Assembly: GCA_951406725.2 (NCBI GenBank)
Contig: OX597839.1
Coordinates: 18,290,001 to 18,354,000 of the forward strand
DNA length: 64,000 nt
Source: Octopus vulgaris
Lineage: Eukaryota
Direction of reading: 5' to 3'
Part shown: positions 6,930 to 20,851 of the stretch, in pieces
Position numbering within the stretch: position 1 is the stretch's first letter
Layout: every line of letters starts with the position of its first letter
Position numbers and translations under genes: made by a program
The notes under the pieces: model-generated
The model's database searches: none
What the model was told of the DNA's origin: nothing
Seen by the model: only the letters and a program-made list of their open reading frames with translations

Positions 6930-7784
6930 TCAAACGAGACAAGGAAATATCTCTGGCAACAAGCAGTCATCCATGGGATCCATGTCATTAAAAGGGATTG
7001 TCATCAACTGATCCTGGTAAGGGGACCCAGGATTGCTAGGCTCACTATTTATACCAGAGTCACTGGCAGAGTCACTGAATTGATCCATATAAGTTGTTTC
7101 CATGGGAATTTTCATTTCGCTTTCTGTAGAGTCACAGGATTTCCTCAGTTTTGTATCAAGCATAAGGGAGGTGATGGGGTTGTTTTCTTCAGCGAGATCA
7201 GAAGTATCAAGATGCTCTAAATCTGCCAGTTGTAGAATATCATATGTTTCTTTGCCTTCTCGGCTGCCAACCGACTCTTGCAGGATATCTTGCAGCAAAG
7301 CCAGGGGGTCAAAATCATAACTACCATCATCGCTGTCGCTGCTGCTGTTGTCGTTATCAACACAGTTGTCAGTGATGTCATCAATGTCTTTGATATCATC
7401 ATATTCTTGTGTAGCAATGTTAGAAATGTCAGGAACAACTACAGTGGAGCTGACTGTTGGCACTATTGTTTCCTCATCTACAAACACACCTTCATCAGCA
7501 GCATCACATGGCAAGATATCACAGACTTCCATCAGGGACTTTGGTCCACTGTCAGAAGCTGGAGACAGAGACGGGGAAGGCTTGACATAGAAATGCTCGG
7601 ATTTTATAAGTTCATTGAGGGAGTCCAGTTGTGTTGTTGCGGTCCCCACCATGGAATTGGAATCCTCTTTTGCGAGAAGCTCAGCAGCTCCAAAACACGA
7701 AGAATCTGTAACTGATTGTGAAGAGATTGGGTTTTTAGATTCTGAATTGCAGACTTCATCCAGAAATTTCCACAACTTGCTAGG
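6930..7784 (-). CDS. XBP1: XBP1 last exon, spliced (XBP1s) frame: acidic transactivation tail
   Basis: Acceptor ttttccAG|CCT at 7785/7784. In frame only after removal of the 20-nt intron. Contains LNELIKSEHFYVKP (cf. XBP1s ELIRFDHIYTKP) and ends LPEIFPCLV* (cf. ELFPQLISV*). Total XBP1s length 594 aa. Confidence 0.92.
   Translation of the reverse strand, partial: PSKLWKFLDEVCNSESKNPISSQSVTDSSCFGAAELLAKEDSNSMVGTATTQLDSLNELIKSEHFYVKPSPSLSPASDSGPKSLMEVCDILPCDAADEGVFVDEETIVPTVSSTVVVPDISNIATQEYDDIKDIDDITDNCVDNDNSSSDSDDGSYDFDPLALLQDILQESVGSREGKETYDILQLADLEHLDTSDLAEENNPITSLMLDTKLRKSCDSTESEMKIPMETTYMDQFSDSASDSGINSEPSNPGSPYQDQLMTIPFNDMDPMDDCLLPEIFPCLV
7604..7784 (-). CDS. XBP1: XBP1 last exon, unspliced (XBP1u) frame overlapping the XBP1s frame
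   Basis: Exon 2 AA|C joins to read MMNLASCGNFWMKS...RIPIPWWGPQQHNWTPSMNL*, resembling human XBP1u LISCWAFW and QWGRHQPSWKPLMN*. Total XBP1u length 376 aa. Confidence 0.88.
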
Positions 7785-8329
7785 CTGGAAAAAAAAAGAA
7801 AAAAAATAACAATTAAACTTAGCCAAAAGATCATTATCAGGTTATTATAGACTGTTTTAGAAATCGAAAACTAAACAATCACATCATCAAAATCTCTAAG
7901 CATGATCAATCTAAGACAATAAAGAGACATTACATTTGACAGAGTAATCAGATTGCTAAAGGGTTAATCAAGTCTTTGGAGCCTACAAAACATATCAACC
8001 CACATCAAGTGTTTAACTCACTAAAAAACATTTTTTTGCCATCATATTGAGGTCTCTTTTCTCCATGCTGGCAGGAGTTGGACAAAAACTTATTTTCAAG
8101 TAGAGTATTTTATCTCTTTCGCATTCGGATAACTCACTCAAACGTAATGCTTATTCATTCTTTAATCACATTATTTTGAATTAATCATGCATTATCTTGT
8201 ATCTAAGAGATTTTCATTATGTCATTGCTTATATTCAGAATGACACTGCAGGATAGGTGTGAGAAGCCAGATCTGACCTCTCTGAACACAAAACTGGCAG
8301 AATATTTAGGCTGGACATGGCCAGTTTAA

Positions 8330-9455
8330 CCCTCTAGCATTTAAAATGGCCACATCCGGCCCAAATATTTTACCTGTAATATGTCCCCTACCACCACGTG
8401 GCAAACAGTGTTGGTGTGTTTATATCCCTGTAACTTAGCAGTTCAGCAAAAGAGCTTGACAGAGTAAGTACTAGGCACAAAAAAATAAATCTTGGGGTCA
8501 ATTCAAGGCGGTGCCCCAGCATGGCCACAGTCAAATGACTGAAATAAGTAAAGGATGAAAGATAAAAGAAGTACTGGAATTGATTCCTTTGACTAAAACC
8601 TTTCAAAGCAGTGCCCCAGCATGGCCACAGTCCAGTATTTAAACTTGCCATATCCAACCTGCTTTTTTGATCAAACTGGCTACATCAGGCTTCTCACACC
8701 TACCCTACAATGTCACTCTAAAAATAACGACATTGAAATCTTGAAGCTATGAGATAATGCATGGTAAATTCAGCCAAGTGAAACTCTAGTTGTGGCCGAT
8801 GATGGTATCTTGTAACTGTCACCTGTGCTGATGGCACATAAAAAACACCTTTTGAGCATTGGGCCTCACAACGACAATGTGGCCAATGCCGGTGGCACAT
8901 AAAAAGCACTTTTAGAGCGTTGGGCCTCACGGACGCACGTGGTTGATGCCGGTGGCACGTAAAAAGCACCTCTTGAGTGTGGGTCTCACGGAGGCATGTG
9001 ACTGATGCCAGTGGCACATAAAAAGCACTTTTAGAGTGTTGGGCCTCACAGACGCATGTGGTTGATCCCAGTGGCACGTAAAAAGCACCTTTCAAGTGTT
9101 GGGCCTCACAAGGGCAATGACAAATGATAAAGACCTTTGGTAATATACCGTGATGGAGAAGACCCATCAAGCCAAGTGAAATTGTAGTCATGATAGATAC
9201 TGGTGTCATGCAACTGGCCCCTCTGCCGATGGGACATAAAAGCATCAATTACACTCTCAGAGTGGTTGGTGTTAGGAAGGGCATCCAGCTGTAGAAACCC
9301 TGCCAAATCAAACTGGAGGCTGGTGGTGCAGTCCATCAGCTTACCAGCCCTGGTCAAACTGTCTAACCCATGCCAGCATGGAAAACGGACGTTAAATGAT
9401 GATGATGTGAATAAATAAGCATTACATCTGACAGAGTAATCTGAATGCTTAAGGG
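8330..9455. mobile_element. piggyBac-type element with nested SINEs filling most of XBP1 intron 2
   Basis: TTAA|CCCTCTAGCATT...AATGCTTAAGGG|TTAA. Contains a SINE fragment (about 8390-8635) and a (GAT)n-tailed element with ~60-bp tandem units (about 8800-9408). Confidence 0.65.
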
Positions 9456-9495
9456 TTAAAGATTAAAAAGACAAAAGACGAAAGATTAAACTTAC

Positions 9496-9993
9496 TTCAT
9501 CATTACTGCCAAAAAGCTGCAACGTATCATCAAGTGAAACAGCATCAAAATGTGTTTCTGCGGCAGAGAAACAATTGGTGCTGCGGACCGTAGGCATTTT
9601 GATTCTGTCTTCACTGGCGATGATAAGCTTTCACTCTTGCAGAGACTACTGTTAGCAATGCTGTTGTTGTTGTTGCTGCTGTAGTTAGATGTGCTGGATG
9701 ATAATGATGATGATGATGATAATGGTGATGATGTGGATGTTGTTCTTGACGATGTCGTCGTAGTTGTTGCTGTGGACAAGTGGTCGCATTCTCCGTTATT
9801 TAACTGGCCCAACCTCTCGCGGAGCTCAGCATTTTCGCAGATCAGTGTCTTGGTCTTTTTCTGTAGCATCTGGTTCTGCTGAAGCAATTTTTTGTTTTCA
9901 GTCTGTAGTTTATCGATGGCTATTTCCATGTCAGACATCTGTGCTTTCTTCCGATCACGGGCTGTTTGGGCTGCAACTCTGTTCTTTAATTTC
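9496..9993 (-). CDS. XBP1: XBP1 coding exon 2 (bZIP basic region and leucine zipper, Ser/Thr/Asn-rich linker, IRE1 splice site)
   Basis: Acceptor tcttttAG|G at 9994/9993 completes the Arg codon and gives KLKNRVAAQTARDRKKAQMSDMEIAIDKLQTENKKLLQQNQMLQKKTKTLICENAELRERLG, the XBP1 bZIP. Donor AA|GTAAGT at 9496/9495. Confidence 0.95.
9564..9583 (-). other. XBP1: IRE1-cleaved non-spliceosomal 20-nt intron of XBP1 mRNA
   Basis: Minus strand reads GGT-CCG|CAGC-ACC ... TGTTTCT-CTG|CCGC-AGAAACA, two 7-nt CNG|CNGC loops. Intron is CAGCACCAATTGTTTCTCTG. Its excision opens the frame through to the stop at 6930. Confidence 0.92.
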
Positions 9994-10083
9994 CTAAAAG
10001 ATAAAAATATTAATTAGAAATATTGAATTTCTAAGCGTCTCAAAGAGACATGAGCGGTGGTGGAGCGATAGAGTGGTTGTATA

Positions 10084-10362
10084 ATGTCAACATAACGTGA
10101 CAGTCCCGTAAAGGGAATTACACCACCACTGTTTAGCCCTAGGAAGCATTGACGCTTCCTGTCGGCTTTGACACATTTCCTGTATCCTTATATTTGCAAA
10201 AGGGGGCCAAGCTAGTCCTAGCTGGTGAGGGTGCTTGCATCCCCCTTTGCAAATATAAGGACACAGGAAACGTGTCAAAGCTGACAGGAAGCGTTGATGC
10301 TTCCTAGGGCTATATAGCGGTGGGGTGATTCCCTTTATGGGACTGTCACGTTAAGTTGACAG
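10084..10362. mobile_element. Foldback MITE (~120-bp arms) just inside the 3' end of XBP1 intron 1
   Basis: tgtcaacataacgtgacagtccc... pairs with ...gggactgtcacgttaagttgaca; TA-flanked, ~30-nt spacer. Confidence 0.8.
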
Positions 10363-10498
10363 TATACAAAAATATTAATATTTAAAATATAATAACAATA
10401 CTTTCATATTTTTCCACAAGGGCAGCAATTTTGGAGAACAGGATAAGTTGATTACATCAACCTCAGTGTTTCACTGATACTTGACAGATATTTAACTC

Positions 10499-20399: not shown

Positions 20400-20851
20400 C
20401 TCCGTTGTATCTTCTCTTCAGGACTCAGATGTGTTAGCCTTCGTCTTTTACGAGGTGCTCCGTCACTGCCGATCGAACTGGCGTCCTCATCGTCTGCAAC
20501 AGTGGTAGATGTTAACCGGAATACGTTCATATTTTCGCTATGTGGACCCAGGACGATTTTCTTGTCTGTCTGCTGTTGCAGTTGTGTTTGTGATTGTACT
20601 TGTTGCTGTTGTTGTTTAGGCGATAGCAGGCTTGTGGTGAATAGGCCGGTCACGTTCGACTGTATTTTACAAACGTTAGGGGCTGTTTTCAGTATGGGTT
20701 TCACAGTGATCACAGATGTTGCAGGTCTGTGTTGGGCGATACCATTCGTGGCTGATGTTGCCACTATGGCAGCACGTCGAACAGTACTGCTGCCCCCGTT
20801 GGTCGTTATAATTAACGTATCGGGTTTCTGAAACTCGGCTATAGCTGTCAT
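20400..20851 (-). CDS. XBP1: X-box binding protein 1, coding exon 1 (N-terminus to start of the bZIP basic region)
   Basis: ATG at 20851 with A at -3 (the ORF-track start at 20902 is a TTG). Reads MTAIAEFQKP...GAPRKRRRLTHLSPEEKIQR(R), matching XBP1 RKRQRLTHLSPEEKALRR. Phase-2 donor AG|GTAAAA at 20400/20399. Confidence 0.95.

What the first reader, a model, noticed from the sequence alone, without database searches (positions are those of the whole stretch)
7604..9563. Dual-coding region: XBP1u HR2 and ribosome-arrest-like peptide overlap the XBP1s activation domain
Seen: 249 nt (9563-9496 plus 7784-7604) are open in two frames across a spliceosomal intron. The unspliced frame gives a hydrophobic stretch HILMLFHLMIRCSFLAVMMNLASCGNFW and ends PIPWWGPQQHNWTPSMNL*. 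Established: mammalian XBP1u has HR2 (ending LISCWAFW) and a C-terminal pausing peptide (QWGRHQPSWKPLMN*) that stalls the ribosome so SRP can deliver the mRNA to Sec61/IRE1. The W-G-x-x-Q-x-x-W-x-P-x-M-N register is conserved here, with one extra Leu. Inference: nascent-chain pausing and self-targeting of the mRNA is retained in this invertebrate lineage.
Basis: partly seen in the sequence, partly recalled or inferred. Interest (0 to 1): 0.75.

Follow-up and report, generated by a model that had tools for sequence, protein, structure and literature searches.

The report
Octopus XBP1 ribosome-pause tail
The octopus XBP1 stress gene reads one 249-base stretch in two frames, and its unspliced form ends in a short peptide with the five residues shared by the fly and vertebrate pausing peptides, so it likely stalls the ribosome and brings its own message to the ER as in those animals; the same peptide ends XBP1 from sea anemones to molluscs.

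Summary
The gene is Octopus vulgaris XBP1 (376 of 376 residues match the public protein). Removing a 20-nt IRE1-type intron (9583-9564) switches frames, and 249 nt are open in both. The unspliced frame carries a hydrophobic segment and, about 50 residues later, WWGPQQHNWTPSMNL*. This keeps all five residues (W249, G250, Q253, W256, P258 in human numbering) shared by vertebrates and Drosophila. The spliced frame does not force them: chance is about 1e-3, or 3e-5 together with an open frame. The core ends 19 of 19 non-vertebrate-type unspliced forms in a bZIP-ranked sample, and also those of Nematostella, an octocoral, Priapulus and a wasp. Pausing in octopus is likely but untested, and 10 of its 14 differences from the human peptide weaken arrest as single changes in the human assay. 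Pausing in an invertebrate is already in print: a fly ribosome-profiling peak and a fly reporter. What I did not find in print is the reach to molluscs and cnidarians, the near-invariant extra Trp (97 of 99), and the loss of the vertebrate N-terminal half. Verdict: new member of a known kind, modest interest.

The parts
20400..20851 (-). XBP1 coding exon 1 (ATG at 20851; ends in the basic region)
9496..9993 (-). XBP1 exon 2: rest of the bZIP, Ser/Thr/Asn-rich linker, IRE1 site, first part of the dual-coding region
   Evidence: (PF00170 35.9 bits, cut-off 27.6)
9540..9607 (-). IRE1-type twin stem-loop with flanking stem; loops CCGCAGC (9586-9580) and CUGCCGC (9566-9560)
   Evidence: (Rfam RF04247, 30.1 bits, below the gathering score of 41)
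9564..9583 (-). Predicted 20-nt unconventional (IRE1) intron; removal gives a 594-aa spliced protein with junction RSAAET
   Evidence: same junction residues in the Argonauta spliced-form record P0003; removal not seen in contigs
9496..9563 (-). Dual-coding region, part 1 (68 nt); HR2-like hydrophobic segment begins at 9554
   Evidence: (Kyte-Doolittle 19-residue mean 1.80, human HR2 1.62)
7785..9495 (-). Spliceosomal GT-AG intron (1711 nt) inside the HR2-like segment
   Evidence: joint in 4 of 4 runs
7604..7784 (-). Dual-coding region, part 2 (181 nt): end of HR2-like segment (to 7760), linker, arrest-like core, U-frame stop TAA at 7606-7604
7610..7651 (-). Arrest-peptide core WWGPQQHNWTPSMN (human 248-261); predicted P-site Met codon 7615-7613, A-site Asn codon 7612-7610; overlaps spliced-frame MVGTATTQLDSLNEL
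6930..7603 (-). Spliced-frame-only acidic C-terminal coding sequence, stop TGA at 6932-6930
   Evidence: spliced-frame tail identical to Argonauta at 167 of 318 columns

Best explanation
This is the octopus XBP1 switch: the unspliced message encodes a hydrophobic segment followed about 50 residues later by a conserved terminal peptide that likely pauses the ribosome at the Met codon 7615-7613, which would let SRP carry the message to Sec61 and IRE1 for removal of a predicted 20-nt intron. Shown here: gene structure, two open frames, the spliceosomal joint, the five-residue core, its persistence against the other frame's synonymous freedom, and the spacing. Inferred from mammals and flies: the pause, SRP and Sec61 delivery, and IRE1 cleavage. 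After cleavage and ligation the same nucleotides are read in the other frame, HR2 and the pause are lost, and the 594-aa transcription factor is made.
For: The five residues shared by fly and vertebrates at a common ribosome-profiling peak (Trp -11, Gly -10, -7, Trp -4, Pro -2; PMC8152447 passages, where -7 is printed 'Glu' but is Gln253 in the human sequence) are all present. A 91-base fly xbp1 fragment about doubles the ribosome load on a reporter in nc14 embryos, with no pausing seen at nc12 (bioRxiv 2025.02.09.637317 passages). Each core residue fixes a third (synonymous) base of the spliced frame; joint chance 0.9-1.7e-3, and 3-4e-5 with the open frame. The third base of U-frame Gly250 is set by A, P, L, T or S in 11 spliced forms, so it varies while the residue stays, as expected for protein-level selection. 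The core ends 46 of 49 non-spliced forms among the 120 listed of 1,311 hits of a bZIP-only search, including 19 of 19 non-vertebrate-type ones. It lies 13-14 residues from the end in 92 of 102 cases. The hydrophobic peak ends at least 40 residues before the Met260-equivalent in 97 of 100 core-bearing proteins against 48% of shuffles, median 51, human 52; peak hydropathy median 1.59 against 0.91. Contigs of 4 of 4 runs carry the intron-retaining form across the IRE1 site, so the U frame has a template.
Against: No stalling measurement exists for octopus. Only 4 of the 8 residues found optimal in human (Y241, P244, W249-H252, W256, P258; PMC6624018 section 11) are kept. Of 14 differences from the human peptide over 241-261, 10 give full release (fFL 1.0 against 0.89) as single changes in the first human screen, 2 strengthen (L246I, F245P), 1 is neutral (K257T) and 1 is uninformative (255); H252Q gives 1.0 in both screens (source data). 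His at 254 is rare among relatives (4 of 99). In flies, deleting HR2 and the tail lowers splicing only from 15 of 37 to 9 of 38 clones (PMC4138184 passages), so the route is not the only one. The core is absent from 16 of 20 long non-spliced-type hits (two of them look like misclassified spliced forms), among them the Eurytemora, Helobdella and Hydra records (Hydra keeps WWG only), and from 34 of 134, several of them fragments. The Rfam match is below its gathering score.
Confidence: 0.75

Rival explanations
1. The tail is under selection as protein but for another XBP1u job, such as a degradation or nuclear-export signal that restrains spliced XBP1, and pausing is weak or absent in octopus.
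For: Ten of 14 octopus differences weaken arrest in the human single-change assay. XBP1u is described as an unstable antagonist of the spliced form (PMC4138184 introduction). That its degradation signal lies in the C-terminal region is recalled, not from a call.
Against: The conserved positions are those tied to stalling. The last two or three residues, which a C-terminal degron would read, vary. The conserved spacing to the hydrophobic segment fits tunnel geometry. Gln at 252 occurs in 44 of 99 non-vertebrate tails, and the divergent fly tail still pauses, so single changes in the human context predict natural variants poorly.
Confidence: 0.15
2. The motif is a by-product of the conserved spliced-frame stretch V-G-x-x-x-x-x-L-[DE]-x-x-N-E-L-I, with no selection on the unspliced frame.
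For: The two motifs share the same nucleotides and the spliced-frame stretch is conserved; random recoding gives on average 2.3-2.5 of 7 matches. The FW at the end of HR2 is plausibly of this kind.
Against: Chance of the five residues given the spliced-frame amino acids is 6e-4 to 1.7e-3 in each of the 11 spliced forms with an anchor out of 25 examined and in octopus, yet they are invariant in 23 of 23 rows of alignment A2 and recur from cnidarians to vertebrates.
Confidence: 0.03
3. The conserved thing is an RNA element (structure or protein-binding site) over 7651-7610, not the peptide.
For: The fixed positions amount to a G-rich nucleotide pattern.
Against: Bases that are silent in the U frame vary freely; Rfam gave no match over 7604-7651 at E up to 1.
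Confidence: 0.05

Closest known systems
Human XBP1u HR2 plus C-terminal arrest peptide (PMC6624018; PDB 6R5Q named there)
   Same: Dual coding after an IRE1 intron; moderately hydrophobic segment; about 50 residues to the predicted stall; W249, G250, Q253, W256, P258, M260, N261 identical.
   Different: Intron of 20 nt instead of 26; N-terminal half (Y241, P244, L246) not kept; Trp at 248; Q252, H254, N255, S259; one extra Leu before the stop.
Drosophila Xbp1 unspliced HR2 and C-terminal region (PMC4138184, PMC8152447, bioRxiv 2025.02.09.637317)
   Same: Invertebrate XBP1u with HR2 and the five-residue core; ribosome-profiling peak and reporter pausing reported.
   Different: The papers describe the fly tail as divergent, with different P- and A-site codons and Ala at 255; octopus keeps Met-Asn and has Asn at 255. 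I did not have the fly sequence itself.
Plant bZIP60u ribosome stalling (PMC11077094, passages)
   Same: IRE1-spliced bZIP whose unspliced form has a hydrophobic segment followed by stalling.
   Different: The paper says the XBP1u arrest peptide is not conserved in AtbZIP60u; its activation domain is N-terminal.

Membership tests
XBP1 (IRE1-spliced bZIP factor) | bZIP domain of XBP1 type | tested here: met
   PF00170 35.9 bits over cut-off 27.6; 376 of 376 residues equal to a record named X-box-binding protein 1-like of O. vulgaris
XBP1 (IRE1-spliced bZIP factor) | Two 7-nt CNGNNGN loops on stems inside a flanking stem | tested here: met
   CCGCAGC and CUGCCGC, closing pairs 0.71 and 0.75; consensus as stated in PMC9217131 passage
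XBP1 (IRE1-spliced bZIP factor) | Rfam RF04247 at its gathering score | tested here: inconclusive
   Full-length match, 30.1 bits, E 0.0003 on a 151-base stretch, gathering score 41
XBP1 (IRE1-spliced bZIP factor) | Intron removal shifts the frame into a long conserved acidic C-terminus | tested here: met
   594-aa open frame; tail identical to the Argonauta spliced form at 167 of 318 columns
XBP1 (IRE1-spliced bZIP factor) | Spliced message observed | tested here: inconclusive
   4 of 4 runs show only the intron-retaining contig; contigs drop rare forms
XBP1 (IRE1-spliced bZIP factor) | Cleavage depends on IRE1 | not testable with these tools
   Needs RT-PCR under ER stress with an IRE1 inhibitor
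XBP1u HR2-arrest peptide module | Moderately hydrophobic segment in the unspliced-only frame | tested here: met
   19-residue mean 1.80 against human 1.62; reached by 0.5-0.9% of recodings
XBP1u HR2-arrest peptide module | About 50 residues from HR2 to the stall codon | tested here: met
   58 from the hydropathy window, 49 from the Trp aligned with human W208; human 52
XBP1u HR2-arrest peptide module | Five residues shared by fly and vertebrate pause sites (W249, G250, Q253, W256, P258) | tested here: met
   5 of 5
XBP1u HR2-arrest peptide module | The eight residues optimal in the human peptide | tested here: not met
   4 of 8; Y241, P244, R251, H252 differ. This defines the vertebrate form: R251P is a natural vertebrate variant, and positions 241-247 are unconserved in 99 non-vertebrate tails
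XBP1u HR2-arrest peptide module | Ribosome stalls with Met in the P-site | not testable with these tools
   No ribosome profiling or raw reads were available (one search listed contigs only)
XBP1u HR2-arrest peptide module | SRP and Sec61 engage the nascent chain | not tested
   Inferred from mammalian work (passages)

The most novel reading that the evidence does not exclude
The XBP1u arrest peptide arose before cnidarians and bilaterians split, as a 14-residue terminal module W-W-G-x-[HQ]-Q-x-[SN]-W-[NT]-P-x-[MK]-N*. Vertebrates traded its first Trp for an N-terminal Y-x-P-P-x-L extension, so molluscs, priapulids, insects and anthozoans carry a compact arrest peptide that stalls through a double-Trp contact not seen in the human structure, and some lineages (hydrozoans, a copepod) lost it and target the message another way.
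Probability: 0.5. Interest if true: 0.55.

Novelty: new member of a known kind. Interest (0 to 1): 0.38.

Why it matters
It extends a well-studied cotranslational trick from vertebrates and flies to molluscs, a priapulid and anthozoan cnidarians, which would make self-targeting of XBP1 mRNA as old as the cnidarian-bilaterian ancestor. About a hundred natural variants reduce the arrest peptide to a 14-residue core with a Trp that vertebrates lack. That gives a ready test of which tunnel contacts cause the pause, and natural losses to compare. For octopus alone the finding is an expected case.

Tried and rejected
A 23-nt intron (cut at CCG^CAG) was my first reading; the fold, the Rfam alignment and the Argonauta junction favour 20 nt. 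A PDB sequence search with the 59-aa tail found nothing at E up to 10, and Pfam had no match for the tail or for the spliced-frame exon 3. A word-indexed search with the tail region returned only two octopus proteins among 32 candidates, too insensitive for a short motif. No run was on record as RNA (no RNA holder listed); 16 were guessed RNA. No 20-nt skip was seen in contigs of 4 runs, which is no evidence of absence. Between-species variation in the overlap could not be read from runs: no other letter was listed inside 7604-7784 or 9496-9563 among the rows shown. A search of the genome for the IRE1 RNase family PF06479 found nothing and its control rang nowhere, so it is uninformative. Two papers were not held. 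Earlier findings of the scan: none by sequence or by the full word set, and the 8 shown of 33 for 'XBP1' concern protist and diatom introns. The LISCWAFW likeness was considered and set aside as weak.

Full report
Gene and observation. The minus strand holds a three-exon XBP1 gene: 20851-20400, 9993-9496, 7784 onward. The joined unspliced (U) frame gives 376 residues, identical to a public Octopus vulgaris XBP1 record and one residue off O. sinensis. The GT-AG joint 9496/7784 stands in contigs of 4 of 4 runs from 4 studies.

IRE1 site. Two 7-nt loops, CCGCAGC (9586-9580) and CUGCCGC (9566-9560), sit on stems inside a longer stem. Rfam RF04247 aligns over its whole length at 30.1 bits, below its gathering score of 41. 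Cutting after the third loop base removes 20 nt (9583-9564) and gives a 594-aa spliced (S) protein whose junction RSAAET matches the Argonauta spliced-form record; the S tails are identical at 167 of 318 columns. Contigs of 4 of 4 runs span the site unspliced; the spliced form was not seen, and contigs drop rare forms.

Is the U tail more than a shadow of the S frame? The motif overlaps the conserved S stretch MVGTATTQLDSLNELI, and every U codon is made of bases 2-3 of one S codon and base 1 of the next. Each core residue therefore fixes a synonymous base of S. Holding the S amino acids and resampling codons (gene usage or uniform), the five residues named beforehand in the literature appear with P = 1.7e-3 or 8.7e-4, the frame stays open with P = 1.2e-2 or 1.8e-2, and both with P = 3.7e-5 or 3.2e-5. 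The hydrophobic segment (19-residue mean 1.80) is reached in 0.9% and 0.5% of recodings open over the first 45 codons. The same five-residue chance is 6e-4 to 1.7e-3 in the 11 of 25 other S forms where my anchor pattern was found. Bases silent in U vary: the S residue that sets the third base of Gly250 is A, P, L, T or S in those 11. This points to selection on the U peptide, not on RNA sequence or on S alone.

How far it reaches. A search ranked on the bZIP only, blind to the tail, listed 120 of 1,311 hits; 49 are non-spliced forms and 46 end in W-G-x-x-Q-x-x-W-x-P. The three exceptions are vertebrate models with cut or different ends. All 19 non-vertebrate-type forms carry it, 13 or 14 residues from the end; four are named (two Octopus species, Patella caerulea, Pinctada fucata) and 15 are not. 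A profile search of 1.84 billion representatives, which favours the motif because the profile contains it, listed its best 150; 134 are non-spliced and 100 carry the core. Of 20 clusters looked up, four gave species names: Nematostella vectensis, Paramuricea clavata, Priapulus caudatus and Aphidius gifuensis, each with the core. Among 99 tails anchored on a terminal WG, after 8 vertebrate-like rows and 43 without the anchor were set aside: Trp248 97, Gln253 97, Trp256 96, Pro258 94; His or Gln at 252 46 and 44; Met or Lys at 260 41 and 36; a stop right after 261 in 61, Leu in 9; positions 241-247 are unconserved, 3.2-3.7 bits of entropy. So the octopus tail, extra Leu included, is an ordinary member of a broad non-vertebrate type. 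In 100 core-bearing proteins the hydrophobic peak ends at least 40 residues before the Met260-equivalent in 97 (48% of shuffles), median 51 against 52 in human. The core is not universal: 16 of 20 long non-spliced-type hits lack it (two look like misclassified spliced forms), including the Eurytemora and Helobdella records and Hydra, which keeps only WWG. Some of these may be faulty gene models.

Will it stall? For: the fly, zebrafish, mouse and human peaks fall at one aligned position, and the residues common to all four are exactly the five kept here (PMC8152447, passages); a fly fragment raises ribosome load about two-fold on a reporter (bioRxiv 2025.02.09.637317, passages). Against: only 4 of the 8 residues optimal in human are kept (PMC6624018, sections 10-11). 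In its source data, 10 of the 14 octopus differences give full release as single changes (Y241Q, Q242K, P243R, P244I, C247P, Q248W, R251P, H252Q, P254H, L259S), L246I and F245P strengthen arrest, K257T is neutral, and position 255 is uninformative. That assay starts near its ceiling (0.89), applies a pulling force and tests one change at a time in a mammalian ribosome. R251P is a natural vertebrate variant, and Gln252 is common in nature. I put real pausing in octopus at about 0.75.

Mechanism. Shown: structure, both frames, constraint on the U peptide, spacing. Inferred from mammals (PMC9217131 passages): the ribosome pauses with Met (7615-7613) in the P-site when HR2 has just left the tunnel, SRP delivers the complex to Sec61, IRE1 cuts the two loops, and ligation switches to the S frame. 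In flies the route helps but is not essential (15 of 37 against 9 of 38 spliced clones; PMC4138184).

What is known. XBP1 dual coding is described as conserved from worms to mammals (PMC1868773, passages). Coelho 2014 states that HR2 and the pausing residues are shared by vertebrates and invertebrates and suggests conservation across metazoans, on Drosophila evidence (first quarter of the text and passages). Ten searches of the open-access library gave no paper describing the motif in molluscs, priapulids or cnidarians or the invariant Trp248; I saw most hits as listings only and read passages of one candidate, which did not treat it (PMC6213907). The library lacks most subscription papers, among them the original Yanagitani, Kanda, Nekrutenko and Hooks papers (known to me from citations or recall only); bioRxiv supplements are closed; and figures with alignments (Coelho Fig. 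2, Chyzynska Fig. 1D, the 90-hit logo of the eLife paper) could not be seen. Any of these may include more taxa.

Verdict. A real, well-supported new member of a known kind. The added value lies in the breadth and the compact consensus, not in octopus itself. Interest 0.38.

Noticed in passing
window 10077-10369 (intron 1, 84 bases upstream of exon 2): A long inverted repeat, 129-nt arms 89% complementary, folding at -212.9 kcal/mol (z -29.8). Probably a miniature transposon; as a near-perfect duplex in the pre-mRNA of a cephalopod it is a candidate A-to-I editing substrate.
   Followed up: partly
window 7785-9495: The spliceosomal intron falls inside HR2 in phase 2 of the U frame. Several short database proteins end in Arg at the matching point (P0218, P0279, P0359), as read-through into the intron would give, suggesting a shared intron position. 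A retained-intron form would keep most of HR2 and lose the pause core.
   Followed up: no
window 8832-9119 and 8200-9460: Intron 2 holds five copies of a 60-nt-period repeat and several dispersed repeats that attract thousands of contigs from elsewhere in the genome.
   Followed up: partly
window about 9640-9790: A Thr/Ser/Asn-rich low-complexity insertion between the zipper and the IRE1 site, present in Octopus and Argonauta and absent from the other rows of alignment A2.
   Followed up: no
window about 21073-21045, minus strand: A TGACGTCA palindrome followed by a CCAAT box about 200 bases upstream of the start codon; a possible CRE/UPRE-like element for autoregulation.
   Followed up: no
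proteins P0108 (Hydra vulgaris) and P0103 (unnamed): Their unspliced forms end in WWG followed by a short tail without the second Trp-x-Pro, a possible shortened or decayed core.
   Followed up: partly
proteins P0096, P0097, P0101, P0110, P0357 (unnamed): A separate group of XBP1-like proteins ends in a P/A-L-D-L-R/T motif instead of the core, resembling a CtBP-binding PLDLS motif (resemblance recalled, not tested).
   Followed up: no
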